Positions 4,481 through 57,560 of a stretch of 64,000 nucleotides of DNA are shown in pieces. Location of the stretch: positions 286,750,001 to 286,814,000 of the forward strand of contig OZ024743.1 in assembly GCA_964016885.1 (NCBI GenBank), in the 5' to 3' direction. Below the pieces are notes generated by a model, which had not been told where the DNA came from, made no database searches, and was given only the letters and a program-made list of their open reading frames with translations. This DNA comes from Eledone cirrhosa (Eukaryota). Every line of letters starts with the position of its first letter. Position 1 is the stretch's first letter. The position numbers and the translations under genes were made by a program.

Positions 4481-4512
<32 letters not shown>

Positions 4513-16779: not shown

Positions 16780-17600
16780 CTGATTGGAAGAGAATATATC
16801 AAAACAAAAAAATTTCTCCTTGGAAATATTTTCATCCAATAAATCTTGTTTAATAATCACATCTCCAATCAAATCATGTCTTGAAAATCGATCAAAGTCA
16901 TAGAGACTAAATTGTACACTTCGATTATGCAGATCCTGACATGATACATTGAACATAAAGGTTTCGTTAAATTCAGGATTCAGTGTTTTGCGATGCACCT
17001 TCGTTTGAAATTTGGTTTTACGATCTGGCAGCAAGTAAACCTTTACATAGGGATCACTTGTACCAGAGAAATCTTTAGCTGGGAGATTGATTGCATTTAT
17101 TATTGTTACAAACAAATGTTCATTTTGCATATCATATCTAAGACTGAAATAAAGTGTACCACATGATTGTTCATGTTTTGTTTCATCTGCACAGGCTTGT
17201 TTGTAAAGTTCAGGTTTAATTTTACCTATTGATGGCTGACTTTTCTGAGACAAGCTCTGCACAGAAAATTCCACGTTTGACAGGTCAAGTTTGTGAGACA
17301 AACTTCGCTCAAATGTTAGGTGTCTCTCAGAAACAGTAGGTAATGTTGATTGGCGAAACGCTTGCAAACTTCTCTTGACAGTGCTCTTAATCCCTTCTTT
17401 GCCATCACATTCATTTGCAAGATTAGGACTACTTTGACTAATTGATAAATTTGCTCTTTCCTCTTTCAGAATTTCAGCTTCATGATATACATGATGGTTT
17501 TTTCCTATTCTACAAAACCGTCGGTATATTAAGAATCCAATTGATAAAATCAGGAAGGCGACAACACAAGTAATTCCAATAATTTCTCCTATAGGGAGAG
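16780..17600 (-). CDS. Syt9-like: Internal exon of a synaptotagmin-9-like gene (Syt3/6/9/10 group): TM helix, linker, complete C2A domain
   Basis: Acceptor TTTTCCTTTACAG| at 17601/17600 (phase 1) and donor AATCAG|GTAAGA at 16780/16779 (phase 0). The protein has TM IIGITCVVAFLILSIGFLIY, the group signature IGKIKPELYKQ, and C2A LPAKDFSGTSDPYVKVYLLPDRKTKFQTKVHRKTLNP..YDFDRFSRHDLIG with all five Ca2+-binding Asp. Flanking exons were not found in the window. Confidence 0.93.
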
Positions 17601-22294: not shown

Positions 22295-24073
22295 TTAACT
22301 GTATACTTTGTGAAAAGTCCTATGGAATTTATGCAGGCAGATAGAAAAAAAATCTGTACGTCTATTTATTATAGAATCTGGGTTAGAGATAATGGTAAAT
22401 TTTTCATTTAGGCAGAGATTACAGATTTTAGATAGAGAGCTGTTCAAGTATGAGGATGCAGAAGAAACCTTCTTCCAAAAGATGGTATATTTAATGTTTT
22501 TGTCTTTCAAGGACCATATGAGTTCTGAGAGAGCCGTGTTGGTTCTTTTAAGTTTGTATTTGAAAGATGAATGATGATTATAGAGACGAGCTTTAAAAGA
22601 GGTGGAAGTGGAGCCAAAATAGGTGAAGGAATTGGTGCTAGTTATAATTTTACACTCATAAATTAAGTTTTTATCGAGACAATGGTTGTTGAGAGGACAT
22701 TTATTTTTATTTTTAATGCGGCAGTTGCAATTAGAGAGATTATTAATGAGTGACCTAGTGTTATCTATAGAAGGAATTGGATTGGAGAAGTTGTTTGCGA
22801 TAGGAATAATAGGAATAATAGTTTCTTGATTTAGAGTTGGATTATGAACATTTAGCGAAGTTGTGTTTGACGTTGTATTTGGGTTTACAGAAGTTAGCCT
22901 AGGGTTTACAATGACGTCGGAAGTACTATTACTGTTATTATGAAATTCAATGTTGGAAGGAAGAGATTTAGTATTTAGTATTTTATTGTTGTGTTTAGAG
23001 ATGATGTTAGAAATATTGGAGGATGTAGAATAAGAAAATTTGATGGTGTGTTTGTTAAATATTTTACTATAGATATGAGAGGGAGGGAAGCATTTATTTA
23101 AGGCACTAAAAAATAATTTAGGAATATTGTTATTAATAGAGATGGAGAAAGGAGCATTATACCAGATTATGTTTTTGTATCTAGGTCTTTTATTAAAATT
23201 ATTGGAATGATCATGATTAATTATTCTACTGTAAGTTTTTCTAGAATTTGTTTCTTTACTATATTTGATTTTATCTGGATAGCCGGCTTTAGAAAGTGCG
23301 TTATTATAGTAATTGGCGTTAGCATCAAAGATGTTTTTATTAGAAGATATGTTAGATATTCTTTTTCCAATATTACTAACTATAGCATTCTTGATATTGG
23401 TAGGATGGTTAGATTTAAAGTTAACATAATTTAGGTTCTCATTGTTTTTATGGTAAGGGTAATATAGGCAAGTGTCAAGATTAAGAGATACATCCAAGAA
23501 ATTAGCTAGTTTGATACTATTATCAAATTCAATTTTTAGGTTATGTTGGTTAAAGAGATTACGTATATTGTTCTTAATAATATTAAGGTTAACTATATTG
23601 CAATTTAGGATAGTAAAGAGTCCATCGTCACGATAAATTCCACCGCGAAGTTGAGGAATTTTCCGACTCAAAGAGTTCAAAATGAAGATACCAATTAAAT
23701 CAGTCAATTGGGATGAATCGGATGCTCCCATTGTGATGTCGAAGTTGTTAGAGGTATCGGCTCTGGTCCAATATTCGTTGTTGAACTCTAGGATGGTTTT
23801 ACGTGCGGTGAGGATGATGTGAAGTTCATCTGTGGTGATGTCAGAATATTTAAGTGCGAAAGATAGAGCATTATTGAGAAGTGAAGGCGAAATGGAGGAA
23901 TAGTAGCTGGCAATATCAAATTGAATAAATTTTAGTTTGTTTTTATTATCCAATTTGTTGAACCAGCCAATCACTTCAGAAGTACCAAACCATAAATTTA
24001 GGTTCAAAGAAGAGCAATTAGAACTAACCTGTGGGATAATTCTATCCAAGATGGCTTTACTAACAACCCCCAG
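22295..24073 (-). CDS. Penelope-like reverse transcriptase (5'-truncated) plus Cys-rich linker and GIY-YIG endonuclease, uninterrupted frame
   Basis: FIQFDIASYY, MGASDS and IYRDDG RT motifs, FLDVSL, CNCR..CPLNNHCL, and LIYECK..TYFGST..FKARLYNH (GIY-YIG). The first ~29 codons of the called ORF come from the inverted arm. Confidence 0.9.
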   Translation of the reverse strand: MGVVSKAILDRIIPQVSSNCSSLNLNLWFGTSEVIGWFNKLDNKNKLKFIQFDIASYYSSISPSLLNNALSFALKYSDITTDELHIILTARKTILEFNNEYWTRADTSNNFDITMGASDSSQLTDLIGIFILNSLSRKIPQLRGGIYRDDGLFTILNCNIVNLNIIKNNIRNLFNQHNLKIEFDNSIKLANFLDVSLNLDTCLYYPYHKNNENLNYVNFKSNHPTNIKNAIVSNIGKRISNISSNKNIFDANANYYNNALSKAGYPDKIKYSKETNSRKTYSRIINHDHSNNFNKRPRYKNIIWYNAPFSISINNNIPKLFFSALNKCFPPSHIYSKIFNKHTIKFSYSTSSNISNIISKHNNKILNTKSLPSNIEFHNNSNSTSDVIVNPRLTSVNPNTTSNTTSLNVHNPTLNQETIIPIIPIANNFSNPIPSIDNTRSLINNLSNCNCRIKNKNKCPLNNHCLDKNLIYECKIITSTNSFTYFGSTSTSFKARLYNHHSSFKYKLKRTNTALSELIWSLKDKNIKYTIFWKKVSSASSYLNSSLSKICNLCLNEKFTIISNPDSIINRRTDFFSICLHKFHRTFHKVYS

Positions 24074-25462
24074 TATGAATGTAAAATTATAACTAGCACC
24101 AATTCCTTCACCTATTTTGGCTCCACTTCCACCTCTTTTAAAGCTCGTCTCTATAATCATCATTCATCTTTCAAATACAAACTTAAAAGAACCAACACGG
24201 CTCTCTCAGAACTCATATGGTCCTTGAAAGACAAAAACATTAAATATACCATCTTTTGGAAGAAGGTTTCTTCTGCATCCTCATACTTGAACAGCTCTCT
24301 ATCTAAAATCTGTAATCTCTGCCTAAATGAAAAATTTACCATTATCTCTAACCCAGATTCTATAATAAATAGACGTACAGATTTTTTTTCTATCTGCCTG
24401 CATAAATTCCATAGGACTTTTCACAAAGTATACAGTTAATATTCAATTCTTTATCAATTTAGAATCTTTTCTCAAAGGCACATATACATACACCTCTTTA
24501 AAATATACCCATCTTCCTACCTTACTTTAAAGGGCATTATACACTCTATAATACTTGTTTACTCATTACCCTCTTTCTATCTTCACCTTGTAAAATCCTT
24601 CATAACATATACATTTGTTTTTTTGACGTTAGAATATTCATCCGCAATCATTATTATTTTTTCTCTCTATCATAAAACTTTTTAATCTCAATTTCATCCT
24701 TAATTTATTATTTTTTTCTCCCCATCAACGAACTCATTCTTAATACATATTAACTCTTTATTCGCATATATTATCAATTCCTTCAATATACAAACTTTAA
24801 CTTCACATTATTTTTCTCAAATCCTTCTACACACAAACCTTAATAATTTTTCTCTTCGTTAATTTTGAAATTGCCACAATACTTATCAACATACACTTTT
24901 TTTGACGTTAGAATATTCATCCACAATTATTATTTTTTCTCTCTATCTTCATACATAAATTCCCTTCGTTAATTTTCAAATTCCTTTAATTTATACATTA
25001 TCTTCCAACGGTTCTCAACCTCTCTATGTAAAACAATATATCTTTTTCTCAGTTATAAAAACTATCTCTTTCTCTCTATCACCCATCTCTCCCTCTCCAC
25101 CTTCACTCTCATCTCCTCCCCCTCTTTTCATCCCCCCCCTCCCTAAATAAAATATTTTTTCCTCGCACATATCCTCCCTTCGTTAATTTTCAAATTCTTT
25201 TAATTTATACATTATCTTCCAACGGTTTTCAACCTCTCTATGTAAAACAATATATCTCCTCTCAGTTATAAAAACTATCTCTTTCTCTCTATCACCCATC
25301 TCTCCCTCTCATCTCCTCCCCTTTTTCATCCTTTCCACCCCCCCCTCTATAAATAAAATATTTTTCCCAATATCACACATCAATCTAAAACCACTTTTCA
25401 TATGTTGATTTAAAACTGCACTATCCACAAGTGTTTTTTAGCCTTCATATCATGTTCTCCTG

Positions 25463-27904: not shown

Positions 27905-29275
27905 GTGGCTTCTCATTGAATTAATACACTTAGAGTTGTCTTCCTTACTTGCTGATGAAAATATTAGCTATCAACTAATATCATTATCAAATGCTTTTTA
28001 CTGCATGCATAAATATACTTTTGCTTTATAATGTTTAAGCATTGAAAATATATTCATGTATACAACTGTCTAATAATTGCATTTGTTAGCTTGGGACTAA
28101 AATGAGAATATTTTCCCTCTTTTCCTCACTCATAATTTAAAGGAAAGAATCTGAATAATTACATACTTCACTCCTCAATGCGTTTGAACTAATGAAACTT
28201 TACCAAGAACCAGCCAATAAACTAACTGTTGCTGATGCAGATCATCATAAGTTTCCTCGAATTCCAAATTTTATCTTGTCTAATTGCACTATATAACATT
28301 AATTTTTTAGCAAATATTAGTAAATTTTAGGATGCTCTTTATGAATATGAAATCCATTTTGCTTCATCATGCCTTCATTCTGATCTATAAGATATACCAC
28401 ATATACAGAAAAAGTGTCTAATCTTGTGGACATTGTATGCAATCTATTAATGTACTAAACTACAATTTATCACAGTTAAAATAACAATATACACTTACAA
28501 AAAAAACTTAGCACAAAAAAAGTTACAGCATTGATTTCACTGTCAAGATCAGTAGCATGGAGTTCAAGTGTGAAGCCAGCAAAAGTCAGCCATTATGTGA
28601 GGATTGGCTCACCCTTGGTACCTTGTTTCAACAGTAATGATCACTTGATGAAATCTTTCACCATGCTCATCACTGATCCTACCCAAGTCCAAAGGAAAGA
28701 AATCCAAGTGATTCTTTTAAAAAGTGAATTTTCAAGGACACCCCGTGCATTGAAGGAATCCAAAAGGTCAGCTATGATTGCCTTGTAATTCAGGCTTCAG
28801 TTCTTTTCTGGAAAGTTTCCAACTGTCTTTAACACATCATCATAAAGTCATCGCTCAACTTCATTCAATGAAGCTCTGAACATCTGATTCTTCATTAATT
28901 TGCAAGTATCTGTTCCAACGAACACGCCTTCTTTAATCTTTGCTTTACTTAATTGAGGAAAGATGTCTTTCAGCACCTTGATTGATTGCCATACAAGATC
29001 CAGTGACTTCACAACATTTTTGAAGATTCCAAATTTAATATATAATGGTGGTAACACAGTTACCTCAAGTGAAACTAGTGATACATATTGAATGTATTTA
29101 TTCCCAGGTCTCCATTCATGACATGTTGGCCAATCCTGCCAACTGTAGTGCTCATTTCAAGACCAGCTATCCCACAGGCACAGGAAGAAGCAAAACTTTG
29201 CGTAGCCCTTTTGCATTCCAGTTAAAAAAACCTATGATATTCAATTCACCTCCAGCTTTCCACTTTAAATCATAA

Positions 29276-32200
29276 TCTATATTAATAAAGCTGATGGCCG
29301 TATGTATGTAACAAACTTTTCGCCAAACAGCTGAACCAAACAGCACCAAAGTTGCACCATAGATGTAACTTTTTCCAAGAAAGTGAGGGTATTTTTGTCT
29401 AATAAATTTTGTTAAAAGATTAAAGATATTATTTAAATATTCACTTCTTTAAAATTTTCAAATGTCAAAGCTTCCGGTTATACGACATTCCTCTCTCTTT
29501 CTAAGTCTGTCTTTTTAGATAGATACATAGCTATAACGTCGCGCCCTTATAATATGTCTGTGTATGTCTGGCTGTCTGCATCTGTACATTGACTTCACTA
29601 TCTATGTGTGTGTATATATATGTATATATAGTGTGTGTATATATATATATAGTGTGTATATATATATATATAGTGTTAGTATCATAAATAAGAGACAGTT
29701 TAACTTGTACATTTTATTACAGCATTCCTTTATACATATATATACGTATATATATATACATAAACATGTTATTTACAGTTGTATAAAAAAGAAGTATAAG
29801 CGAAGCTAGGTACGTCAGCTATATAGATATATATCTGGATGCCGTAGAACACACCAATGGTAGCCGGGCACCAGTCGGATGGGCCAGCTAGTACTATATA
29901 TTTTCAACAGTAATACTGTACTATACAATATATTTTCAACAGTAATACTGTACTATACTATACTATACTATATATTTCCAACAGTAATACTATACAATAT
30001 GTTTTCAACAGTAATACTATACTATATATTTCCAACAGTAATACTATACAATATGTTTTCAACAGTAATACGATACTATATATTTTCAACAGTAATACTA
30101 TACAATATATTTTCAACAGTAATACTATACTATATATTTTCAACAGTAATACTATACTATATGTTTTCAACAGTAATACTATACTATATATTTCCAACAG
30201 TAATACTATACAATATGTTTTCAACAGTAATACTATACTATATATTTTCAACAGTAATACTGTACTATATATTTTCAACAGTAATACTGTACTATACTAT
30301 ACTATACTATATATTTCCAACAGTAATACTATACAATATGTTTTCAACAGTAATACTATACAATATGTTTTCAACAGTAATACTATACTATATATTTTCA
30401 ACAGTAATACTATACTATATATTTTCAACAGTAATACTATACTATATATTTTCAACAGTAATACTATACTATACAATATATTTTCAACAGTAATACTATA
30501 CTATATATTTTCAACAGTAATACTATACTATATATTTTCAACAGTAATACTATACTATACAATATATTTTCAACAGTAATATTATACTATATATTTCCAA
30601 CAGTAATACTATACTATATATTTTCAACAGTAATACTATACTATACAATATATTTTCAACAGTAATACTGTACTATACAATATATTTTCAACAGTAATAC
30701 TATACTATATATTTTCAACAGTAATACTATACTATATATTTTCAACAGTAATACTATACTATATATTTTCAACAGTAATACTATACTATATATTTTCAAC
30801 AGTAATACTATACTATATATTTTCAACAGTAATACTATACTATATGTTTTCAACAGTAATACTATACTATATATTTTCAAAAGTAATACTATACTATATA
30901 TTTTCAACAGTAATACTATACTATACAATATATTTTCAACAGTAATACTATACAATATGTTTTCAACAGTAATACTATACAATATGTTTTCAACAGTAAT
31001 ACTATACAATATGTTTTCAACAGTAATACTATACTATATATTTTCAACAGTAATACTATACTATATATTTTCAACAGTAATACTATACTATATATTTCCA
31101 ACAGTAATACTGTACAATATATTTCCAACAGTAATACTATACTATATATTTCCAACAGTAATACTATACTATATATTTTCAACAGTAATACTGTACTATA
31201 TATTTTCAACAGTAATACTATACTATATATTTCCAACAGTAATACTATACTATATATTTCCAACAGTAATACTATACTATATATTTTCAACAGTCATACT
31301 ATACTATATATTTTCAACAGTAATACTATACTATATATTTTCAACAGTCATACTATACTATATATTTTCAACAGTAATACTATACTATATATTTCCAACA
31401 GTAATACTATACTATATATTTTCAACAGTAATACTGTACTATATATTTTCAACAGTAATACTGTACTATACTATATATTTTCAACAGTAATACTGTACTA
31501 TACAATATATTTTCAACAGTAATACTATACTATATATTTTCAACAGTAATACTGTACTATACAATATATTTTTAACAGTAATACTGTACTATACAATATA
31601 TTTTCAAAAGTAATACTATACTATATATTTTCAACAGTAATACTATACTATATATTTTCAACAGTAATACTATACTATATATTTTCAACAGTAATACTAT
31701 ACTATATATTTTCAACAGTAATACTATACTATATATTTTCAACAGTAATACTATACTATATGTTTTCAACAGTAATACTATACTATATATTTTCAAAAGT
31801 AATACTATACTATATGTTTTCAACAGTAATACTATACAATATTTTTTCAACAGTAATACTATACAATATGTTTTCAACAGTAATACTATACTATATATTT
31901 CCAACAGTAATACTATACTATATATTTTCAACAGTAATACTATACTATATATTTCCAACAGTAATACTGTACAATATATTTCCAACAGTAATACTATACT
32001 ATATATTTTCAACAGTAATACTATACTATATATTTCCAACAGTAATACTATACTATATATTTTCAACAGTAATACTATACTATATATTTTCAACAGTCAT
32101 ACTATACTATATATTTTCAACAGTAATACTATACTATATATTTCCAACAGTAATACTATACTATATATTTTCAACAGTAATACTGTACTATATATTTTCA

Positions 32201-35200
32201 ACAGTAATACTGTACTATACTATATATTTTCAACAGTAATACTGTACTATACAATATATTTTCAACAGTAATACTATACTATATATTTTCAACAGTAATA
32301 CTGTACTATACAATATATTTTCAACAGTAATACTGTACTATACAATATATTTTCAACAGTAATACTATACTATATATTTTCAACAGTAATACTATACTAT
32401 ATATTTTCAACAGTAATACTATACTATATATTTTCAACAGTAATACTATACTATACAATATATTTTCAACAGTAATACTATACTATATATTTTCAACAGT
32501 AATACTATACTATATATTTCAACAGTAATACTATACTATATGTTTTCAACAGTAATACTATACTATATATTTTCAAAAGTAATACTATACTATATGTTTT
32601 CAACAGTAATACTATACAATATGTTTTCAACAGTAATACTATACAATATGATTTCAACAGTAATACTATACTATATATTTCCAACAGTAATACTATACTA
32701 TATATTTTCAACAGTAATACTATACTATATATTTTCAACAGTAATACTATACTATATATTTCCAACAGTAATACTGTACAATATATTTCCAACAGTAATA
32801 CTATACTATATATTTTCAACAGTAATACTATACTATATATTTTCAACAGTAATACTGTACTATATATTTTCAACAGTAATACTATACTATATATTTCCAA
32901 CAGTAATACTATACTATATATTTCCAACAGTAATACTATACTATATATTTTCAACAGTCATACTATACTATATATTTTCAACAGTAATACTATACTATAT
33001 ATTTTCAACAGTCATACTATACTATATATTTTCAACAGTAATACTATACTATATATTTTCAACAGTCATACTATACTATATATTTTCAACAGTAATACTA
33101 TACTATATATTTCCAACAGTAATACTATACTATATATTTTCAACAGTAATACTGTACTATATATTTTCAACAGTAATACTGTACTATACTATATATTTTC
33201 AACAGTAATACTGTACTATACAATATATTTTCAACAGTAATACTATACTATATATTTTCAACAGTAATACTGTACTATACAATATATTTTTAACAGTAAT
33301 ACTGTACTATACAATATATTTTCAACAGTAATACTATACTATATATTTTCAACATTAATACTATACTATATATTTTCAACAGTAATACTATACTATATAT
33401 TTTCAACAGTAATACTATACTATATATTTTCAACAGTAATACTATACTATATATTTTCAACAGTAATACTATAGTATATGTTTTCAACAGTAATACTATA
33501 CTATATATTTTCAAAAGTAATACTATACTATATGTTTTCAACAGTAATACTATACAATATGTTTTCAACAGTAATACTATACAATATGTTTTCAACAGTA
33601 ATACTATACTATATATTTCCAACAGTAATACTATACTATATATTTTCAACAGTAATACTATACTATATATTTCCAACAGTAATACTGTACAATATATTTC
33701 CAACAGTAATACTATACTATATATTTCCAACAGTAATACTATACTATATATTTTCAACAGTAATACTGTACTATATATTTTCAACAGTAATACTATACTA
33801 TATATTTCCAACAGTAATACTATACTATATATTTCCAACAGTAATACTATACTATATATTTTCAACAGTAATACTATACTATATATTTTCAACAGTCATA
33901 CTATACTATATATTTTCAACAGTAATACTATACTATATATTTCCAACAGTAATACTATACTATATATTTTCAACAGTAATACTGTACTATATATTTTCAA
34001 CAGTAATACTGTACTATACTATATATTTTCAACAGTAATACTGTACTATACAATATATTTTCAACAGTAATACTATACTATATATTTTCAACAGTAATAC
34101 TGTACTATACAATATATTTTCAACAGTAATACTGTACTATACAATATATTTTCAACAGTAATACTATACTATATATTTTCAACAGTAATACTATACTATA
34201 TATTTTCAACAGTAATACTATACTATATATTTTCAACAGTAATACTATACTATACAATATATTTTCAACAGTAATACTATACTATATATTTTCAACAGTA
34301 ATACTATACTATATATTTCCAACAGTAATACTATACTATATGTTTTCAACAGTAATACTATACTATATATTTTCAAAAGTAATACTATACTATATGTTTT
34401 CAACAGTAATACTATACAATATGTTTTCAACAGTAATACTATACAATATGTTTTCAACAGTAATACTATACTATATATTTCCAACAGTAATACTATACTA
34501 TATATTTTCAACAGTAATACTATACTATATATTTTCAACAGTAATACTATACTATATATTTCCAACAGTAATACTGTACAATATATTTCCAACAGTAATA
34601 CTATACTATATATTTCCAACAGTAATACTATACTATATATTTTCAACAGTAATACTGTACTATATATTTTCAACAGTAATACTATACTATATATTTCCAA
34701 CAGTAATACTATACTATATATTTCCAACAGTAATACTATACTATATATTTTCAACAGTCATACTATACTATATATTTTCAACAGTAATACTATACTATAT
34801 ATTTTCAACAGTCATACTATACTATATATTTTCAACAGTAATACTATACTATATATTTCCAACAGTAATACTATACTATATATTTTCAACAGTAATACTA
34901 TACTATACAATATATTTTCAACAGTAATACTATACTATATGTTTTCAACAGTAATACTATACTATATATTTTCAACAGTAATACTATACTATATATTTTC
35001 AACAGTCATACTATACTATATATTTTCAACAGTAATACTATACTATATATTTCCAACAGTAATACTATACTATATATTTTCAACAGTAATACTGTACTAT
35101 ATATTTTCAACAGTAATACTGTACTATACTATATATTTTCAACAGTAATACTGTACTATACAATATATTTTCAACAGTAATACTATACTATATATTTTCA

Positions 35201-38200
35201 ACAGTAATACTGTACTATACAATATATTTTCAACAGTAATACTGTACTATACAATATATTTTCAACAGTAATACTATACTATATATTTTCAACAGTAATA
35301 CTATACTATATATTTTCAACAGTAATACTATACTATATATTTTCAACAGTAATACTATACTATATATTTTCAACAGTAATACTATACTATATATTTTCAA
35401 CAGTTATACTATACTATATATTTTCAACAGTAATACTATACTATATGTTTTCAACAGTAATACTATACTATATATTTTCAAAAGTAATACTATACTATAT
35501 GTTTTCAACAGTAATACTATACAATATGTTTTCAACAGTAATACTATACAATATGTTTTCAACAGTAATACTATACTATATATTTCCAACAGTAATACTA
35601 TACTATATATTTTCAACAGTAATACTATACTATATATTTTCAACAGTAATACTATACTATATATTTCCAACAGTAATACTGTACAATATATTTCCAACAG
35701 TAATACTATACTATATATTTCCAACAGTAATACTATACTATATATTTTCAACAGTAATACTGTACTATATATTTTCAACAGTAATACTATACTATATATT
35801 TCCAACAGTAATACTATACTATATATTTCCAACAGTAATACTATACTATATATTTTCAACAGTCATACTATACTATATATTTTCAACAGTAATACTATAC
35901 TATATATTTTCAATAGTCATACTATACTATATATTTCCAACAGTAATACTATACTATATATTTCCAACAGTAATACTATACTATATATTTTCAACAGTAA
36001 TACTGTACTATATATTTTCAACAGTAATACTGTACTATACTATATATTTTCAACAGTAATACTGTACTATGCAATATATTTTCAACAGTAATACTATACT
36101 ATATATTTTCAACAGTAATACTGTACTATACAATATATTTTCAACAGTAATACTGTACTATACAATATATTTTCAACAGTAATACTATACTATATATTTT
36201 CAACAGTAATACTATACTATATATTTTCAACAGTAATACTATACTATATATTTTCAACAGTAATACTATACTATATATTTTCAACAGTAATACTATACTA
36301 TATATTTTCAACAGTAATACTATACTATATATTTTCAACAGTAATACTATACTATACAATATATTTTCAACAGTAATACTATACTATATATTTTCAACAG
36401 TAATACTATACTATATATTTCCAACAGTAATACTATACTATATGTTTTCAACAGTAATACTATACAATATGTTTTCAACAGTAATACTATACTATATATT
36501 TCCAACAGTAATACTATACTATATGTTTTCAACAGTAATACTATACAATATGTTTTCAACAGTAATACTATACAATATGTTTTCAACAGTAATACTATAC
36601 TATATATTTCCAACAGTAATACTATACTATATATTTCCAACAGTAATACTGTACAATATATTTCCAACAGTAATACTATACTATATATTTCCAACAGTAA
36701 TACTATACTATATATTTTCAACAGTAATACTGTACTATATATTTTCAACAGTAATACTATACTATATATTTCCAACAGTAATACTATACTATATATTTCC
36801 AACAGTAATACTATACTATATATTTTCAACAGTCATACTATACTATATATTTTCAACAGTAATACTATACTATATATTTTCAACAGTCATACTATACTAT
36901 ATATTTTCAACAGTAATACTATACTATATATTTCCAACAGTAATACTATACTATATATTTTCAACAGTAATACTATACTATACAATATATTTTCAACAGT
37001 AATACTATACTATATATTTTCAACAGTAATACTATACTATATATTTCCAACGGTAATACTATACTATATGTTTTCAACAGTAATACTATACAATATGTTT
37101 TCAACAGTAATACTATACTATATATTTCCAACAGTAATACTATACTATATGTTTTCAACAGTAATACTATACTATATATTTTCAAAAGTAATACTATACT
37201 ATATGTTTTCAACAGTAATACTATACAATATGTTTTCAACAGTAATACTATACAATATGTTTTCAACAGTAATACTATACTATATATTTCCAACAGTAAT
37301 ACTATACTATATATTTCCAACAGTAATACTATACTATATATTTTCAACAGTAATACTGTACTATATATTTTCAACAGTAATACTATACTATATATTTCCA
37401 ACAGTAATACTATACTATATATTTCCAACAGTAATACTATACTATATATTTTCAACAGTCATACTATACTATATATTTTCAACAGTAATACTATACTATA
37501 TATTTTCAACAGTAATACTGTACTATACAATATATTTTCAACAGTAATACTATACTATATATTTTCAACAGTAATACTGTACTATACAATATATTTTCAA
37601 CAGTAATACTGTACTATACAATATATTTTCAACAGTAATACTATACTATATATTTTCAACAGTAATACTATACTATATATTTTCAACAGTAATACTATAC
37701 TATATATTTTCAACAGTAATACTATACTATACAATATATTTTCAACAGTAATACTATACTATATATTTTCAACAGTAATACTATACTATATATTTCCAAC
37801 AGTAATACTATACTATATGTTTTCAACAGTAATACTATACTATATATTTTCAAAAGTAATACTATACTATATGTTTTCAACAGTAATACTATACAATATG
37901 TTTTCAACAGTAATACTATACAATATGTTTTCAACAGTAATACTATACTATATATTTCCAACAGTAATACTATACTATATATTTTCAACAGTAATACTAT
38001 ACTATATATTTTCAACAGTAATACTATACTATATATTTCCAACAGTAATACTGTACAATATATTTCCAACAGTAATACTATACTATATATTTCCAACAGT
38101 AATACTATACTATATATTTTCAACAGTAATACTGTACTATATATTTTCAACAGTAATACTATACTATATATTTCCAACAGTAATACTATACTATATATTT

Positions 38201-41200
38201 CCAACAGTAATACTATACTATATATTTTCAACAGTCATACTATACTATATATTTTCAACAGTAATACTATACTATATAGTTTCAACAGTCATACTATACT
38301 ATATATTTTCAACAGTAATACTATACTATATATTTCCAACAGTAATACTATACTATATATTTTCAACAGTAATACTATACTATACAATATATTTTCAACA
38401 GTAATACTATACTATATGTTTTCAACAGTAATACTATACTATATATTTTCAACAGTAATACTATACTATATATTTTCAACAGTCATACTATACTATATAT
38501 TTTCAACAGTAATACTATACTATATATTTCCAACAGTAATACTATACTATATATTTTCAACAGTAATACTGTACTATATATTTTCAACAGTAATACTGTA
38601 CTATACTATATATTTTCAACAGTAATACTGTATTTATACAATATATTTTCAACAGTAATACTATACTATATATTTTCAACAGTAATACTGTACTATACAA
38701 TATATTTTCAACAGTAATACTGTACTATACAATATATTTTCAACAGTAATACTATACTATATATTTTCAACAGTAATACTATACTATATATTTTCAACAG
38801 TAATACTATACTATATATTTTCAACAGTAATACTATACTATATATTTTCAACAGTAATACTATACTATATATTTTCAACAGTTATACTATACTATATATT
38901 TTCAACAGTAATACTATACTATATGTTTTCAACAGTAATACTATACTATATATTTTCAAAAGTAAAACTATACTATATGTTTTCAACAGTAATACTATAC
39001 AATATGTTTTCAACAGTAATACTATACAATATGTTTTCAACAGTAATACTATACTATATATTTCCAACAGTAATACTATACTATATATTTTCAACAGTAA
39101 TACTATACTATATATTTCAACAGTAATACTATACTATATATTTCCAACAGTAATACTGTACAATATATTTCCAACAGTAATACTATACTATATATTTCCA
39201 ACAGTAATACTATACTATATATTTTCAACAGTAATACTGTACTATATATTTTCAACAGTAATACTATACTATATATTTCCAACAGTAATACTATACTATA
39301 TATTTCCAACAGTAATACTATACTATATATTTTCAACAGTCATACTATACTATATATTTTCAACAGTAATACTATACTATATATTTTCAATAGTCATACT
39401 ATACTATATATTTCCAACAGTAATACTATACTATATATTTCCAACAGTAATACTATACTATATATTTTCAACAGTAATACTGTACTATATATTTTCAACA
39501 GTAATACTGTACTATACTATATATTTTCAACAGTAATACTGTACTATGCAATATATTTTCAACAGTAATACTATACTATATATTTTCAACAGTAATACTG
39601 TACTATACAATATATTTTCAACAGTAATACTGTACTATACAATATATTTTCAACAGTAATACTATACTATATATTTTCAACAGTAATACTATACTATATA
39701 TTTTCAACAGTAATACTATACTATATATTTTCAACAGTAATACTATACTATATATTTTCAACAGTAATACTATACTATATATTTTCAACAGTAATACTAT
39801 ACTATATATTTTCAACAGTAATACTATACTATACAATATATTTTCAACAGTAATACTATACTATATATTTTCAACAGTAATACTATACTATATATTTCCA
39901 ACAGTAATACTATACTATATGTTTTCAACAGTAATACTATACAATATGTTTTCAACAGTAATACTATACTATATATTTCCAACAGTAATACTATACTATA
40001 TGTTTTCAACAGTAATACTATACAATATGTTTTCAACCATAATACTATACAATATGTTTTCAACAGTAATACTATACTATATATTTCCAACAGTAATACT
40101 ATACTATATATTTCCAACAGTAATACTGTACAATATATTTCCAACAGTAATACTATACTATATATTTCCAACAGTAATACTATACTATATATTTTCAACA
40201 GTAATACTGTACTATATATTTTCAACAGTAATACTATACTATATATTTCCAACAGTAATACTATACTATATATTTCCAACAGTAATACTATACTATATAT
40301 TTTCAACAGTCATACTATACTATATATTTTCAACAGTAATACTATACTATATATTTTCAACAGTCATACTATACTATATATTTTCAACAGTAATACTATA
40401 CTATATATTTCCAACAGTAATACTATACTATATATTTTCAACAGTAATACTATACTATACAATATATTTTCAACAGTAATACTATACTATATATTTTCAA
40501 CAGTAATACTATACTATATATTTCCAACGGTAATACTATACTATATGTTTTCAACAGTAATACTATACAATATGTTTTCAACAGTAATACTATACTATAT
40601 ATTTCCAACAGTAATACTATACTATATGTTTTCAACAGTAATACTATACTATATATTTTCAAAAGTAATACTATACTATATGTTTTCAACAGTAATACTA
40701 TACAATATGTTTTCAACAGTAATACTATACAATATGTTTTCAACAGTAATACTATACTATATATTTCCAACAGTAATACTATACTATATATTTCCAACAG
40801 TAATACTATACTATATATTTTCAACAGTAATACTGTACTATATATTTTCAACAGTAATACTATACTATATATTTCCAACAGTAATACTATACTATATATT
40901 TCCAACAGTAATACTATACTATATATTTTCAACAGTCATACTATACTATATATTTTCAACAGTAATACTATACTATATATTTTCAACAGTCATACTATAC
41001 TATATATTTTCAACAGTAATACTATACTATATATTTCCAACAGTAATACTATACTATATATTTTCAACAGTAATACTATACTATATATTTTCAACAGTAA
41101 TACTATACTATACTATATGTTTTCAACAGTAATACTATACAATATATTTTCAACAGTAATATTATACTATATATTTTCAACAGTAATACTATACAATATA

Positions 41201-44200
41201 TTTTCAACAGTAATACTATACTATATATTTTCAACAGTAATACTGTACTATACAATATATTTTCAACAGTAATACTATACTATATATTTTCAACAGTAAT
41301 ACTATACTATATATTTTCAACAGTAATACTATACTATATATTTCCAACAGTAATACTATACTATATGTTTTCAACAGTAATACTGTACTATACAATATAT
41401 TTTCAACAGTAATACTATATGTTTTCAACAGTAATACTATACTATACAATATATTTTCAACAGTAATACTGTACTATACAATATATTTTCAACAGTAATA
41501 CTATACTATATATTTTCAACAGTCATACTATACTATATATTTTCAATAGTAATACTATACAATATATTTTCAACAGTAATACTATACAATATATTTTCAA
41601 CAGTAATACTATACAATATATTTCCAACAGTAATACTATATATTTCCAACAGTAATACTATACTATATATTTTCAACAGTAATTCTATACTATATATTTT
41701 CAACAGTAATACTATACAATATATTTTCAACAGTAATACTGTACTATACAATATATTTTCAACAGTAATACTATACTATATATTTTCAACAGTAATACTG
41801 TACTATACAATATATTTTCAACAGTAATACTGTACTATACAATATATTTTCAACAGTAATACTATACTATATATTTTCAACAGTAATACTATACTATATA
41901 TTTCCAACAGTAATACTATACTATATGTTTTCAACAGTAATACTGTACTATACAATATATTTTCAACAGTAATACTATATGTTTTCAACAGTAATACTGT
42001 ACTATACAATATATTTTCAACAGTAAAACTATACTATATGTTTTCAACAGTAATACTATACTATACAATATATTTTCAACAGTAATACTGTACTATACAA
42101 TATATTTTCAACAGTAATACTATACTATATATTTTCAACAGTAATACTATACTATATATTTTCAACAGTAATACTATACAATATATTTTCAACAGTAATA
42201 CTATACAATATATTTTCAACAGTAATACTATACAATATATTTCCAACAGTAATACTATACTATATATTTCCAACAGTAATACTATACTATATATTTTCAA
42301 CAGTAATTCTATACTATATATTTTCAACAGTAATACTATACAATATATTTTCAACAGTAATACTGTACTATACAATATATTTTCAACAGTAATACTATAC
42401 TATATATTTTCAACAGTAATACTGTACTATACAATATATTTTCAACAGTAATACTGTACTATACAATATATTTTCAACAGTAATACTATACTATATATTT
42501 TTAACAGTAATACTATACTATATATTTCCAACAGTAATACTATACTATATGTTTTCAACAGTAATACTGTACTATACAATATATTTTCAACAGTAATACT
42601 ATATGCTTTCAACAGTAATACTGTACTATACAATATATTTTCAACAGTAAAACTATACTATATGTTTTCAACAGTAATACTATACTATACAATATATTTT
42701 CAACAGTAATACTGTACTATACAATATATTTTCAACAGTAATACTATACTATATATTTTCAACAGTAATACTATACTATATATTTTCAACAGTAATACTA
42801 TACAATATATTTTCAACAGTAATACTATACAATATATTTTCAACAGTAATACTATACAATATATTTCCAACAGTAATACTATACTATATATTTCCAACAG
42901 TAATACTATACTATATATTTTCAACAGTAATTCTATACTATATATTTTCAACAGTGATACTATACAATATATTTTCAACAGTAATACTGTACTATACAAT
43001 ATATTTTCAACAGTAATACTATACTATATATTTTCAACAGTAATACTGTACTATACAATATATTTTCAACAGTAATACTGTACTATACAATATATTTTCA
43101 ACAGTAATACTATACTATATATTTTCAACAGTAATACTATACTATATATTTCCAACAGTAATACTATACTATATGTTTTCAACAGTAATACTGTACTATA
43201 CAATATATTTTCAACAGTAATACTATATGTTTTCAACAGTAATACTGTACTATACAATATATTTTCAACAGTAAAACTATACTATATGTTTTCAACAGTA
43301 ATACTATACTATACAATATATTTTCAACAGTAATACTGTACTATACAATATATTTTCAACAGTAATACTATACTATATATTTTCAACAGTAATACTATAC
43401 TATATATTTTCAACAGTAATACTATACAATATATTTTCAACAGTAATACTATACAATATATTTTCAACAGTAATACTATACAATATATTTCCAACAGTAA
43501 TACTATACTATATATTTCCAACAGTAATACTATACTATATATTTTCAACAGTAATTCTATACTATATATTTTCAACAGTAATACTATACAATATATTTTC
43601 AACAGTAATACTATACTATATATTTTCAACAGTAATACTGTACTATACAATATATTTTCAACAGTAATACTATACAATATATTTTCAACAGTAATTCTAT
43701 ACTATATATTTTCAACAGTAATACTATACTATATGTTTTCAACAGTAATACTGTACTATATATTTTCAACAGTAATACTATACTATATATTTTCAAAAGT
43801 AATACTGTACTATATATTTTCAAAAGTAATACTGTACTATATATTTTCAAAAGTAATACTGTACTATATATTTTCAACAGTAATATTATACTATATATTT
43901 CCAACAGTAATACTATACTATATATTTTCAACAGTAATATTATACTATATATTTCCAACAGTAATACTATACTATATATTTTCAAAAGCAATACTATACT
44001 ATATATTTTCAACAGTAATACTGTACTATATATTTTCAACAGTAATATTATACTATATATTTCCAACAGTAATACTATACTATATATTTTCAAAAGTAAT
44101 ACTATACTATATATTTTCAACAGTAATACTGTACTATATATTTCCAACAGTAATACTATACTATATATTTTCAACAGTAATATTATACTATATATTTTCA

Positions 44201-44808
44201 ACAGTAATACTATACTATATATTTTCAACAGTAATACTATACTATACTATATATTTTCAAAAGTAATACTATACTATATATTTTCAAAAGTAATACTATA
44301 CTATATGTTTTCAACAGTAATATTATACTATATATTTTTAACAGTAATACTGTACTATATATTTTCAACAGTAATACTGTACTATATATTTTCAACAGTA
44401 ATATTATACTATATATTTTTAACAGTAATACTGTACTATATATTTTCAACAGTAATACTGTACTATATATTTCTAACAGTAATACTATACTATATATTTT
44501 CAAAAGTAATACTATACTATATATTTTCAACAGTAATACTGTACTATATATTTCCAACAGTACTACTATACTATATGTTTTCAACAGTATTACTATACTA
44601 TACTATATATTTTCAACAGTAATACTGTACTGTACTATATATTTTCAACAGTAATACTATATATACTATACTATATATTTTCAACAGTAATACTATACAA
44701 CACAGACGGATTATCGTCTGTTTATCCAAGCGAAACTAGGTACGTCAGCTATATAGATATATATCTGGATGCCGTAGAACACGCCAATGGTAGCCGGGCG
44801 CCAGCTAG
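29276..44808 (+). mobile_element. Composite non-autonomous Helitron-like insertion (15.5 kb) with two 3' termini
   Basis: Starts A|TCTATATTAATAAAG and ends CCAGCTAG|T with no TSD. Removing it restores the transposase frame (I-K-Y-Y-D-L-K-W). The ~80-bp 3' end is present twice (29798-29891 and 44728-44808). Confidence 0.85.
29892..44700. repeat. 27-bp satellite array (TACTATATATTTTCAACAGTAATACTA), roughly 540 monomers, with 22/32-bp variants and higher-order structure
   Basis: Directly visible. Monomer length varies by gain or loss of a TACTA/TACAA pentamer. Confidence 0.98.
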
Positions 44809-45576
44809 TACTTGATAAAAGAGAGTAACATCTTGATAGTGTTGTATGACTCTAGCCTTCCTCAAATAACCCACTGGAATAGCTGGGTACTCATTTGCAA
44901 CATGCAATAAACTGCTATCATTGAATAACTGCCAATCTGTCTCGACATCAGAAGAAATTCCCAGTACCATCATCAAACCAGTTATGTTCTAGCAACAAAC
45001 TAAACTCAGTTCATCATAAGTGTAAAAAAATTCAACAAATTTCTTCTCTTGGTGCCTGTACACTGTTTTTTTGGTTCCTTGAGCTAAGACACCAAATTCT
45101 CTGAACATTGTTCCAAAAGGTAATCATCATCTTTAGAAAGTCCCAACTTTTGAACAAAATGATCCAGTTGTTCTTGACTTAATTTAGGACAAGAATGAGG
45201 AATTTCAAAATATTTGTCATCCATTACCACTCTCTTATTAAGAGTGTTTCAAAAATAGACATGGCCTGATATCCATTATATCTACTTTCACAGCTCTCTC
45301 ATTAAAGGTTGTCAGAAAACGAACAATCAAAAGCATTCTTAAAAGACAAATAGGAACACTCAATTTACTGCATGCTATATTACATTTCTGTAAATTTGAT
45401 ACATAGTGGGGTATCTTGTAGATCAAAATCTAGATATGATGGAGCAGAATTGGTTTCATATTCAGAAAGAGCACCCTAAAATTAACTAAAATCACCCTAA
45501 TTATCTCTTGCTAAATAAACGTTTTTCATTTTGTCTTGCAGTGTTAGTATATGGATTGCATTATTGCATAAGCATT

Positions 45577-45760
45577 GGCGGTGGATTGGCAGTATCGGTA
45601 GAGGGTCGGACGCCATGCTTTCCAGCATAGTTACGTCCCTTTACGATCTGAGTTCAAATCCCGCCGAGGTTGACTTTGCCTTTCATCTTTACGGGGTCGA
45701 TAAAATAAAGTACCAGTAATGCACTGGGTAATTGCTGGCCTTGTGCCTAAAGTAGAAACA
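45577..45760 (+). mobile_element. Full-length tRNA-derived SINE family A with 17-bp TSD
   Basis: A box TGGCAGTATCGG and B box GAGTTCAAATCC. TSD ATTATTGCATAAGCATT at 45560-45576 and 45761-45777. Confidence 0.92.
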
Positions 45761-46496
45761 ATTATTGCATAAGCATTCTTGTGACTCATGTCATAAGATT
45801 TGTTTGTGCTAACATTAATTTCAGGCTTTCAACATTTATTTGTAATTTCACAAACATCAATCTCATATTCCCAAATCCCAGATAACTTTAGAAATAATGA
45901 AATGATTTGATAAACACATGCAATAATAAAAATTTATTTTATCAATATTTCTCTTACTCTACACCAAAAGTGTTTGCTTAACAATTCAGTTGCTAACACT
46001 TCGATAAGCTATGGAAAAGCTACACTTTACTGATAAGCCTCAACCATAGCAAAATAATTCATGCATCCAGTTATCTTGTGTGCTTACTGATAAATATATT
46101 ATTAGTCATCAACTTTTATTAATATTTTCTCTTAAGGCATGCCTTACTCCCTTTTTAATGGTTTTAGTTTTGAGGCTGGGGCTGTGCTATAGTTTCTGCT
46201 GACCATAATTTAATTATTTAATATTTCAATCATGAAATATTCTTTCACCTACATGATTGTCATTATCATAATTTTAAATAAGGGCATTGGGTAAGGGCGG
46301 TGGATTGGCAGTATTGGTAGTGAGTTCAAATCCCGCAGATTTTGAAAATCAAATCCATTTTTCTCTAGGATGCACTGTTTCAGCACCTTTCAGTGGCATA
46401 CATGCATACATATATGCACACATTTACTCTGAAATATATTATATATCATCATCATAGCTTAAAAATAATTTTAAAATAATTAAATTATACAGACAT

Positions 46497-49424: not shown

Positions 49425-52035
49425 AAAAGCCTTCCCTGGTGAGGAATGTACCTCCCAACATAACTTAGTTGTCAGTGACCTCATTGTCAAAACTAGACGA
49501 ACTTGGAAACAGAAGACAACCTGGAGAAGAAAGATCTAGAAGCTGAAAGACCCCACAGCCAGTAACAGATTTTAAAATATTTTACTCAACGCCTATGACA
49601 GTAAAGAAGAACAGATAGATACATTCAATGTAGAAGAGGACTGGGAATTCCTAAAAAATAATTTACTAAAAGACGAGATCTGGGGTTGGAGCAAGACCAC
49701 AGGGAGGAGGAAAGCGACTTGGTGGTGGAACAATAAGGTAGATGAGGCAGTTAAGGCCAAGAGACAGGCATGGAAAGAATGGAAGAATGGGGGAAGCAGG
49801 GTACATTACATAGAGACCAGGAGGGAAGCTAGGCGACAAGTATACTTAGCTAGAAGGGAAGCATGTTTTGCAACGTGAGGGACCAGAAACAAGAGGTGTT
49901 CAAGATTGTGAGGCAGTGTGTCAGAGAGAATTGTGATGTCATTGGAGAGAAGTGTATCCAGAATGATAAAGGTGAGCTTGCCCTCACAAGTACCGAGAGG
50001 AAAGATGCGTGGAAGAGCCATTATGAAAGATTACTAAAAGAGGAGAATGCATGGGAAAAAGAGACCCTACCCCAAGTGGACCCTATAGAGGGGCCAGCAG
50101 TACAAGTCAGCAGCAGCGTAGTAAGTAAGGCAATCAAAGATATGAAGACAGGTAAGGCAACCGGTCCATCGAGTATAGCTGCCGAAATGCTGAAGGCACC
50201 AGGGTCGGTAGGTCACACCATAACCACACGTATTGTTAACCAGGTAATACTAGAGGCTGTCATACCAAAAGATTGGTGCAGTAGCATCATTGTAAACTGC
50301 TACAAGGGTAAAGGTGATGCACTAAATAGAGGAAACTATAGAGGTATAAAGCTGATGGACCAGGTCATGAAAGTAACGGAAAGAGTTATAGCACAGTTGA
50401 TTAGGGACTGGGTAAAACTAGATGAGATGCAATTTGGGTTTGTGCCAGGAAAAGGCACCACTGATGCCCTCTTCCTTGTGAGGCAATTACAGGAAAAGTA
50501 CCTAGCTAAAAGTAAGCCGCTCTATCTGGCATTTGTCGATCTGGAAAAAGCTTCCGACAGAGTCCCCCGTGCTATAATCTGGTGGGCTCTTCGAAAACTA
50601 GGAGTAGATGAATGGCTTGTGAAAGCTGTAGAAACCATGTATAGAGGAGCAGTCAGCAAAGTTAGGATTAGCAATGACTATAGCGAGGAATTTATCATAC
50701 AGGTCGGTGTCCACCAGGGCTCTATTCTTAGCCCTCTCCTGTTCATTATAATTTTGCAGGCAATAACAGAGGAGTTTAAGACCAAATGCCCATGGAAACT
50801 CCTATATGCGGATGACCTCGCACTTATAGCTGAATCTATGGTAGAACTAGAGAGGAAATTCCAAACATGGAAGCAGGGACTAGAAAGAAAGGGTCTCAAA
50901 GTCAACTTGACAAAGACTAAGGTCCTCGTAAGTAGACGAGAAAACAGAATCCAGATCCCCTCAGGGAAATGGCCTTGCTCAGTTTGTAGGAAAGGTGTAG
51001 GAACTCCATCCTCTGCCCCAAAGGCAAACAATGGGTACACAAGAGATGCAGTGGGATCTCAGAAAGCTTAACTATGAATGTAGGCTTCATATGTAGCAGC
51101 TGCACTGGGACAGCAAGCATCAAACAGCCACAGGAAATAAGCACCACCAAACTCTGGGAGGGCTCTGTAGAAACAGTAGACAGCTTCTGCTATCTAGGTG
51201 ACCGAATTAGCAGCGGAGGTGGGTGTTCGGAAAGTACAGTAACTAGGGTAAGAACAGGATGGAAGAAGTTCAGGGAGCTACTGCCACTGCTAGCTACAAA
51301 AGGCTTTTCCCTCAAAATGAAAAGCAGACTGTATGATGTGTGTATACGGACAGCAATGTTACATGGTAGTGAGACCTGGGTGCTGTCTGTGGAAGACTTG
51401 CATAGATTAGAAAGAAACGAAGCCTGCATTCTCCGATGGATGTGTAATAGTAATATATGCAAACGGCAAAGCATAAATGAATTGAGAGAGAGACTGAGCA
51501 TAAGAGGAATCAAATGCTGTGTGCAGGAGAGGAGGTTGTGCTGGTATAGACATGTGATGTGTATGAAGGATGACAGGTGCATAAAAAGGTGCAGAGCACT
51601 AGAAGTCGATGGAAGCCACAGAGTGGGGAGACCCAAGAAGACCTGGAATGAGGTGATAGAAGCTGCCTTGCCCAATTGCACCTCTCAAAGGTGATGACAC
51701 ATGACCATGACCTCTGGTGTCATGCAGTAATACGGAAGACCCGACTTCCCACAGGTACAAGCTGAAGCTGAAGCATATAGGCAACATACCCACCCCATCC
51801 CACTGTAAAGTGGACGTGGAGGTGCCACGGAAAAAAAGCACCCAGCACTCATTGTAAATGAGGTTGGTGTTAGGAAGGGCATCCAGCTGTAGAAATCATG
51901 CCAGAATCAGTTCCCATATGAGCAAGACAAGTTCAGCCGACCAGACACTGCCCACAACAGGACAACCCGTCTAACCCATGCTAGCATGGAAGAATGGACG
52001 TAAAACGATGATGATGATGATGATGATGATGATGA
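49425..52035 (+). mobile_element. Long 5'-truncated RTE-clade LINE (end of APE domain, RT, PHD-like finger, 3' UTR), frameshifted
   Basis: KAFPGEECTSQHNLVVSDL (APE C-terminus), TWWWN, NYRGIKL, QFGFVPGKGTTDA, GVHQGSILSPLLF, LLYADDL; frameshift near 51002; (GAT)n tail. Confidence 0.95.
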
Positions 52036-52231: not shown

Positions 52232-52360
52232 AATCCCTTTATGATCTGAGTTCAAATCCCGCCGAGGTTAACTTTGCCTTTCATCCTTACGGGGTCGATA
52301 AAATAAAGTACCAGTAATGCACTGGAATAATTGCTGGCCTTGTGCCAAAAGCAGAAACAG
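52232..52360 (+). mobile_element. 5'-truncated SINE family A
   Basis: Matches 45637-45760. TTATTTATCCATTTAAT occurs on both sides as a probable TSD. Confidence 0.85.
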
Positions 52361-52750
52361 TTATTTATCCATTTAATGTTTGCATACATTTACACACATA
52401 CACACACACACACATACATATACTCACATATGTACACACATATATACATATATAGTTGCTTTTCTTTGAGAGATATATTAAAACTGTGTTCTAGTTTAAT
52501 CTTTTTAATTAATGTTTTCAAATATTTCTGCACACACAAACACAAACTACCAACTATTTATCTGTAAATATTGATATTTTCTGAATGGTCCATCTCATGC
52601 TAGCATGAATTGAGTAGTTTTGAAGATTATGAAAACATACTTTAAAAAGTTATTAAGAAACGAAAAAAATAAACAAAAAAGCATTATATGTATGTATGAA
52701 TACATAATTGTTTCTACTTTTGGCACAAGGCCAGCAATTACCCAGTGTAT

Positions 52751-54674: not shown

Positions 54675-54780
54675 ATTACTGGTACTTTATTTTATCGACC
54701 CCATAAGGATGAAAGGCAAAGTTAACCTCGGCGGGATTTGAACTCAGATCATAAAGGGACCAAAGCATGGTGTCCGACTC

Positions 54781-57411: not shown

Positions 57412-57560
57412 TGTTCTGAGTACAAATCCCGTCGAGGTTAGCTTTGCCTTTCATCCTTATGGGGTCGATAAAATAAAGTACCAGTAATGCACTGGGATAG
57501 ATTTAATCTACTTTCCTCTAGCCTCCAAATTTTCTGGCCTTGTGCCTAAATCAGAAACCA
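57412..57560 (+). mobile_element. 5'-truncated SINE family A
   Basis: Core CTTTGCCTTTCATCC..GGGGTCGATAAAATAAAGTACCAG and end CTGGCCTTGTGCCTAAA. Confidence 0.85.

What the first reader, a model, noticed from the sequence alone, without database searches (positions are those of the whole stretch)
29892..44808. The satellite monomer may be the amplified 5' terminus of a second mini-Helitron
Seen: after the first CTAG the sequence reads TACTATATATTTTCAACAGTAA, close to the Helitron-type start TCTATAT... used at 29276. The last monomer runs directly into a unique hairpin (ACAGACGG-ATTA-TCGTCTGT, 44702-44721) and then the CTAG terminus. Collapsing the array to one monomer gives a ~135-bp mini element placed head-to-tail behind the 616-bp one. 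Inference: repeated re-initiation or slippage at the rolling-circle start, rather than expansion of an internal repeat, seeded the array. That would be an unusual route to satellite DNA.
Basis: inference. Interest (0 to 1): 0.7.

Follow-up and report, generated by a model that had tools for sequence, protein, structure and literature searches.

The report
Octopus Helitron carrying a 27-bp satellite
In what is likely an octopus genome, a 15.5-kb block (a small non-coding element, about 530 copies of a 27-base repeat, and a second copy of the element's end) sits at a single point inside a dead transposon gene; it is likely an ordinary satellite-carrying rolling-circle (Helitron) composite, and the idea that the repeat is an element's amplified start remains untested.

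Summary
The sequence features are real, but the 5'-terminus reading is not shown. The block 29276-44808 is one insertion at an A|T bond, with no target duplication, inside a decayed transposase gene. It holds a 616-bp TC...CTAG element (E1), about 533 monomers of 27 bp, a 20-bp hairpin, and a second copy of E1's 3' end with a 13-bp deletion. Against the 5'-end idea: the array starts TA, not TC; its likeness to E1's start is chance-level; 31% of A|T sites inside the array are followed by the same TACTATA; no hairpin or tail fragments lie in the array; and its growth shows multi-kb block duplications. The family's true 5' boundary could not be seen, because no genome is held and the one read-laying run hid 162 loose-end rows. 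Best reading (0.5): a satellite carried inside a Helitron family, captured with its 3' end by an upstream Helitron. Interest 0.3.

The parts
29276..44808 (+). Whole composite insertion, 15,533 bp, TC...CTAG, between host A29275 and T44809, no target-site duplication or loss
   Evidence: Flanks rejoin in frame as ...LLSFIKY-YDLKWKAGG..., collinear with homolog P0003 ...MLSLIKY-NDFEWRAGG...
29276..29891 (+). E1: 616-bp non-coding Helitron1-type element; TC start, internal (TA/TG)n tracts, long form of the 3' end
   Evidence: no stop-to-stop frame longer than 93 aa over its unique part
29798..29891 (+). First copy of the shared 3' tail (right terminal sequence), long form as in most family copies
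   Evidence: 96% over 77 nt to 44728-44804; long terminus matches the loose end behind 44805 in 22 and 23 contigs
29892..44700 (+). 27-bp satellite array, about 533 monomers; 5-bp (TACTA/TACAA) length variants; interior block duplications of 624, 1,248, about 1,750 and 3,477 bp; both edges lack the long duplications
44702..44721 (+). 20-bp hairpin between array and tail; internal, not the terminal hairpin; shared with other family copies (family letter at 44710 is C)
   Evidence: z -5.0; 44710 A>C in 1519 of 1564 and 1276 of 1309 contig depth, 126 of 129 and 147 of 149 reads
44728..44808 (+). Second copy of the 3' tail; 13 bp shorter than E1's, most simply by deletion between two GCCAGC repeats of the family form; ends CTAG|T
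   Evidence: the deletion mechanism is inference
28558..29275 (-). Host: 3' half of a decayed DNA-transposase gene (Chapaev-like motifs)
   Evidence: tblastn of homologs, 35-74% identity; motifs per PMC4079192 seen in P0003
44809..45221 (-). Host: 5' half of the same decayed transposase gene
   Evidence: tblastn residues 115-267 of P0003

Best explanation
The 15.5-kb block is a single insertion at an A|T bond with TC and CTAG ends, and is likely a composite non-autonomous Helitron in which the 27-bp array is likely an internal repeat of a satellite-carrying family rather than an element's start. Inferred steps: (1) the family has the form [unknown 5' part]-array-hairpin-tail-CTAG; (2) E1, which shares the family's tail, inserted at an A|T inside a monomer, which leaves the array starting TACTATA; (3) a Rep/helicase supplied in trans started at E1's TC, read through E1's CTAG, stopped at the downstream tail and moved the unit here, leaving the family's own 5' part behind; (4) the interior of the array then grew by ordinary slippage and unequal exchange. 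Shown: the single insertion point, the two tails, the recurrence of monomer-hairpin-tail elsewhere, and the block duplications.
For: Single A|T site, no duplication. Only one TC start in the block, at 29276; no ATC anywhere in the array. 797 of 2,577 A|T sites in the array (31%) are followed by TACTATA, so the observed start is the commonest outcome of an insertion into a monomer. Monomer-hairpin-tail is bridged by contigs that differ from this locus (4 of the 16 pieces shown: X1 records 3, 4; X2 records 10, 11) and by one RAD locus with another 3' flank. Summed contig depth per monomer bin (134,000-274,000) is about 20-70 times that of the tail bins (3,800-7,200), which fits long arrays better than 1-few monomers per copy; the tool warns that this depth is no copy number. 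E1's first 19 nt pair with the tail (15 of 19; 2% of 2,000 control A|T sites; 0 of 38 sites with the same first 5 nt by gapped score), whereas the array start does not (10 of 19; 57-68% of controls); this is post hoc and weak. Read-through to a neighbouring or 5'-truncated Helitron's 3' end is documented in Myotis, and Helraiser prefers AT-rich DNA on the 3' side of the site (PMC4778049 passages). Internal satellites in Helitrons are common.
Against: The family's upstream part was never seen, so 'internal' is inferred from precedent and from the missing TC. Both array edges lack long duplications (median longest exact repeat 89 bp in the first 500 bp; 80-84 bp in the last 800; 157-951 bp in the bins between 30392 and 43391), so the E1 junction is not a recent cut through the duplicated interior; this also fits a true old 5' edge. 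The model needs read-through of E1's long-form end and termination at a tail that now carries a 13-bp deletion.
Confidence: 0.5

Rival explanations
1. One reading: the monomer is the 5' terminus of a second mini-Helitron (140 bp here, 153 bp with the family's long end). The terminus was duplicated and then expanded, and E1 later inserted at, or a few bases inside, that 5' end.
For: Monomer-hairpin-tail-CTAG|T recurs at other loci. The junction CTAG|T followed by TA-rich sequence fits E1 inserting at the A|T that a 5' junction regenerates. The 5' edge of the array is old. Helitrons abutting or nesting in each other's 5' ends are in print (PMC4778049; PMC5148889), as are multiple-5'/single-3' arrays (PMC12628747 citing Xiong et al. 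2016).
Against: Start is TA, where HLE1 elements start TC (PMC11417382). Likeness to E1's start is chance-level. No loose end with non-monomer letters before a monomer is among the 24 rows shown, while the 3' boundary shows as 22 and 23 contigs at one place; 162 rows were hidden and short junction contigs may not have been laid. No aborted pieces reach into the hairpin; length variants are almost all 5-bp steps. One RAD locus has the hairpin preceded by about 66 nt that did not align as monomer (62 and 69 reads).
Confidence: 0.3
2. E1-array-hairpin-tail is the normal full-length form of a subfamily with an internal spare 3' end, present at many loci; E1's TC start is the family's 5' end and nothing here is locus-specific.
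For: Weak complementarity of E1's start to the tail. The two tails are 96% alike. Families defined by a shared right end with several left parts are the rule (PMC11417382).
Against: The consensus after the long CTAG end in 22 and 23 contigs is mixed AT-rich sequence (agreement 0.72-0.74), not the monomer. All RAD reads covering the tail's start also cover the hairpin (129 of 129 and 149 at both places), so E1-type upstream sequence was not seen there; these reads come mostly from two loci.
Confidence: 0.13
3. The array arose or arrived in place after E1 inserted, by recombination or repair that copied array and tail from another locus, without transposition of the composite.
For: One-sided satellite/Helitron hybrids are attributed to recombination in oyster (PMC8268682; PMC12628747). 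The four letters TACT follow both CTAG ends, a possible microhomology.
Against: Both ends of the block fall exactly on the canonical TC and CTAG at an A|T with no host base lost. The T is required by the target rule and the rest of TACT is weak in AT-rich DNA.
Confidence: 0.07

Closest known systems
Non-autonomous Helitron1 (HLE1) elements with de novo 3' ends, e.g. HelibatN541/N542/N580 in Myotis (PMC4778049, passages)
   Same: TC start, CTAG end, A|T target, no duplication; a second 3' end gained by lying next to another or a 5'-truncated Helitron
   Different: Here 14.8 kb of satellite lies between the two ends; no autonomous partner was found
Satellite-carrying Helitrons/Helentrons: oyster Cg_HINE and CgiSat arrays (PMC7492417 first part of text; PMC8268682 passages), C. 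elegans Helitron1/HelitronY 35-bp minisatellite (10.64898/2026.08.08.743475 passages), Xenopus Heli2Xen 166-bp arrays (PMC12001565 passages), Paramecium LTS-satellites-RTS elements (PMC13085455 passages)
   Same: Tandem repeat tied to Helitron terminal modules and spread to many loci; one-sided forms occur
   Different: Oyster and Xenopus cases are HLE2-type, while this has HLE1 ends; about 533 monomers exceeds the longest element-associated CgiSat01 array (89 monomers), though those monomers are about six times longer
Helitron arrays with multiple 5' and a single 3' end: plant centromeric arrays (Xiong et al. 2016, seen only as summarised in PMC12628747) and FoHeli elements of Fusarium (PMC5148889 passages)
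   Different: There the repeated unit is recognisably the element's 5' end; here it is 27 bp, starts TA and was not shown to be a terminus

Membership tests
Helitron1/HLE1, non-autonomous (whole block or E1) | 5' TC start | tested here: met
   29276-29277 TC, boundary fixed by host-gene collinearity
Helitron1/HLE1, non-autonomous (whole block or E1) | 3' CTRR end | tested here: met
   CTAG at 29888-29891 and 44805-44808; family tails end CTAG|T before varied flanks
Helitron1/HLE1, non-autonomous (whole block or E1) | Insertion between A and T without target-site duplication | tested here: met
   Empty site rejoins in frame with no residue gained or lost against P0003
Helitron1/HLE1, non-autonomous (whole block or E1) | Short hairpin about 10 nt before CTRR | tested here: inconclusive
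   Last 40 nt fold weakly (-5.6 and -3.8 kcal/mol); the terminal 53-66 nt are no better than shuffles (z +0.55, +0.78)
Helitron1/HLE1, non-autonomous (whole block or E1) | Many copies sharing a sharp 5' boundary | not tested
   The one read-laying run covered only 44590-45200; no genome held
Helitron1/HLE1, non-autonomous (whole block or E1) | Autonomous RepHel partner with the same termini | not testable with these tools
   No genome; Pfam on 4 of the long non-array frames of the window gave no Rep or helicase family
   Starts TA at 29892; no ATC in the array
   4 of 16 contig pieces shown bridge monomer and tail with 5-10 differences; one RAD locus with another flank
   0 of 24 loose-end rows shown fit; 162 rows hidden
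Helitron2/HLE2/Helentron (HINE) | Insertion between T and T | tested here: not met
   Site is A|T; rule from PMC11417382
Helitron2/HLE2/Helentron (HINE) | Short (sub)terminal inverted repeats | tested here: inconclusive
   One 20-nt, 80% pair between 29275-29294 and 29815-29834, among 151 inverted pairs; 1.5-2% of control sites do as well
Satellite DNA | Long head-to-tail array with higher-order structure, abundant in the genome | tested here: met
   14.8 kb, block duplications to 3,477 bp; summed contig depth far above what this locus supplies
Satellite DNA | Heterochromatic or centromeric location | not testable with these tools
   No chromosome context; the window holds a synaptotagmin exon about 12 kb away
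Chapaev (CMC) transposase, host gene | C(2)C, LH and H(4)H motifs; CAC...GTG ends; placement in a tree | tested here: inconclusive
   Motifs named in PMC4079192 are visible in homolog P0003; no Pfam match for the window pieces; ends and tree not tested

The most novel reading that the evidence does not exclude
The 27-bp monomer is itself the nicking origin of a roughly 150-bp mini-Helitron that has given up the TC rule. Every monomer is a usable start, so each jump carries away a variable run of monomers plus the 3' end, and the satellite is the element's own origin multiplied hundreds of times at many octopus loci.
Probability: 0.2. Interest if true: 0.6.

Novelty: new member of a known kind. 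Interest (0 to 1): 0.3.

Why it matters
As it most likely stands, it is a clean octopus example of known processes: a Helitron family that spreads a satellite, and a composite with two 3' ends whose boundaries are fixed to the base by the gene it interrupts. Two literature searches (15 of 17 and 7 of 7 papers listed) showed no description of this satellite, but repeat libraries in supplements, such as that of PMC13282606, were not read and may hold it. If the monomer were the origin itself, it would be a minimal case of 5'-end amplification and would test whether the TC start is really required; one pass over a long-read octopus assembly decides this.

Tried and rejected
Exact-pattern scans for the tail and for the monomer gave 0 hits in metagenome, viral and prokaryotic genome collections, as expected for animal DNA. 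Searching for spurious proteins translated from array plus tail, to see upstream parts, failed: 0 hits and 1 unrelated low-complexity repeat protein. Rfam: 0 matches in the window. No other copy of tail, hairpin or monomer in the window; only a 53-nt piece of E1 at 2701-2753. A 13-nt monomer core in the left flank (28626) is chance: 2 hits against a mean of 0.93 in 30 shuffles. The 30 letters before the hairpin in one RAD locus resemble a diverged monomer (p 0.016 against shuffles, but 8.9% of 2,000 real window 30-mers score as well): suggestive only, not used as support. Protein coding by the array rejected: frames are 9-residue low-complexity repeats. Insertion of two elements with a target duplication rejected by the in-frame empty site. 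PDB search with the host transposase homolog gave nothing below E 0.5. Earlier notes of this scan: none by sequence or place.
Full report
Context. The window is AT-rich animal DNA. A long frame at 16687-17631 is 91% identical to synaptotagmin-9/10-like proteins of Octopus sinensis and O. bimaculoides and 86% to Argonauta, so the organism is likely an octopod. No whole genome is held.

Observation. The array runs from 29892 to about 44700: period 27, 532.9 copies by TRF, 531 cores by script. It starts right after a CTAG and is followed by a real 20-bp hairpin at 44702-44721 (z -5.0, 0 of 200 shuffles). The hairpin is not terminal. After it comes a second copy of the last part of the upstream 616-bp element E1 (77 nt at 96%, then a 13-nt gap) and the final CTAG at 44805-44808. 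The collapsed unit is 140 bp. The likeness of the array start to E1's start is not above chance: 7-29% of 3,000 sampled A|T sites elsewhere in the window match as well, depending on length.

Boundaries. The two flanks are halves of one decayed transposase gene on the minus strand. Of the 20 homologs printed, 17 hit both flanks in order and 3 only the left flank (28 homologs found). The flanks rejoin in frame, with no residue gained or lost against homolog P0003. So 29276-44808 (15,533 bp) sits at one A|T bond with TC at its left end and CTAG at its right and no target duplication. These are the Helitron1 rules as stated in PMC11417382 (passages) and PMC4778049 (passages). The host gene has Chapaev-like motifs (PMC4079192 passages; P0003); its membership was not tested further.

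The family elsewhere. I laid 4 of 6 listed runs on 44590-45200: two contig sets of one sample, which may be the window's own source, and two RAD read sets of two other samples. A contig identical to this locus's right junction has depth 4.3 and 5.9; tail bins have summed depth 3,800-7,200 and monomer bins 134,000-274,000. The tool warns that these sums are no copy number, so I take only the order: a tail family of many copies and far more monomers than this locus holds. Most copies differ from this locus at 44710 and 44735 and carry E1's longer terminus, followed by T and mixed flanks (22 and 23 contigs, agreement 0.74 and 0.72). The short end at 44808 is therefore likely a local 13-bp deletion between two GCCAGC repeats (inference). 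Four of the 16 contig pieces shown bridge monomer, hairpin and tail with 5-10 differences from this locus. The RAD reads fall mostly into two loci, which I infer from matching counts and lengths: one joins a monomer core to hairpin, tail and a CTAG|T end with another flank (60-63 and 71-72 reads); the other has about 66 nt before the hairpin that did not align as monomer (62 and 69 reads). Those letters resemble a diverged monomer only weakly (p 0.016 against shuffles; 8.9% of window 30-mers as good). None of the 24 loose-end rows shown has non-monomer letters before a monomer, but 162 rows were hidden and reads from a single start are not listed below 50, so the 5' boundary is unresolved.

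How the array grew. Spacers between cores are 13 nt in 440 of 530 cases and 18 nt in 79; nearly all length changes are 5-bp steps. No word longer than 8 nt is shared with the hairpin/tail, so there are no aborted longer 5' pieces of the kind repeated re-initiation would likely leave (inference). The interior has exact repeats up to 951 bp at a lag of 3,477 bp and 656 bp at 1,248 bp; the first 500 bp and last 800 bp have medians of 80-89 bp. Growth to 533 copies thus looks like ordinary satellite turnover between two old edges.

Mechanism. The array's first letters need no special explanation: 797 of 2,577 A|T sites in the array are followed by TACTATA, and ATC never occurs. The simplest account is that E1 inserted at an A|T in a monomer of a satellite-carrying relative, and that a later round started at E1's TC, passed its CTAG and ended at the relative's tail. 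Such gains of a downstream Helitron's 3' end are reported in Myotis, and bypass of the 3' end was shown experimentally (PMC4778049 passages). A weak, post hoc hint points the same way: E1's first 19 nt pair with the tail (15 of 19; 2% of controls), the array's do not (10 of 19; 57-68%). I give this 0.5. It fails the TC test at this locus. A standard two-ended subfamily gets 0.13 and in-place recombination 0.07.

Comparison with what is known. Satellites carried by Helitron-type elements are described in oyster (PMC7492417, first of 7 parts read; PMC8268682 passages), C. elegans (10.64898/2026.08.08.743475 passages), Xenopus (PMC12001565 passages) and Paramecium (PMC13085455 passages). Multiplied 5' ends with one 3' end are described for plants (Xiong et al. 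2016, not read; summary in PMC12628747 passages) and Fusarium. Double insertion as a seed of satellites is treated in 10.1101/158386 (passages), for elements that make target duplications. The O. vulgaris repeat paper has no passage on satellites in its main text (PMC13282606); its supplements were not read. Earlier notes of this scan on other genomes describe similar satellite-carrying elements; they are unchecked and were not used as support.

Verdict. A real, well-bounded composite with Helitron1-type ends, carrying an abundant 27-bp satellite; a new member of a known kind. Interest 0.3; novel case probability 0.2, interest 0.6 if true.

Noticed in passing
window 28314-28400 and 45406-45492: 87-nt inverted pair (82%) on either side of the host transposase gene, possibly subterminal repeats of the host transposon.
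   Followed up: partly
window 29275-29294 and 29815-29834 (also 44745-44764): E1's first 20 nt are 80% complementary to part of the shared tail; with a 6-nt gap 14 of 14 letters pair. Helitron2-like geometry on an element with Helitron1 ends; about 2% of control sites do as well.
   Followed up: partly
window 44726-44752: The start of the tail holds a second CTAG (44736-44739), 14 nt after the hairpin, and a GCGAAGC motif in the family form; it may be an older 3' end now internal (inference; it folds weakly).
   Followed up: partly
loose end behind 44631: Two contigs leave the monomer mid-core into about 130 nt of unrelated sequence, so some arrays end without hairpin or tail. Two other contigs skip 44646-44757 or 44710-44769: internally deleted family copies.
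   Followed up: no
window 2701-2753 (-): 53-nt piece about 90% like E1's interior (29429-29481), without E1's ends.
   Followed up: partly
window 16687-17631 (-): Long exon of a synaptotagmin-9/10-like gene (C2 domain); whether the insertion lies in its intron was not worked out.
   Followed up: no
window 49854-51071 and 52700-53686 (+): Two reverse-transcriptase frames, the second followed by a PHD finger: retroelement remains.
   Followed up: no
window 22295-24163 (-): 622-codon open frame with no Pfam match at E 0.1.
   Followed up: no
window 45578-45766 with copies at 1241-1394, 12323-12496, 52234-52365, 54675-54760, 57415-57496: A short dispersed repeat, 82-95% alike, at least six copies in the window; SINE-like by recall, not tested.
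   Followed up: no
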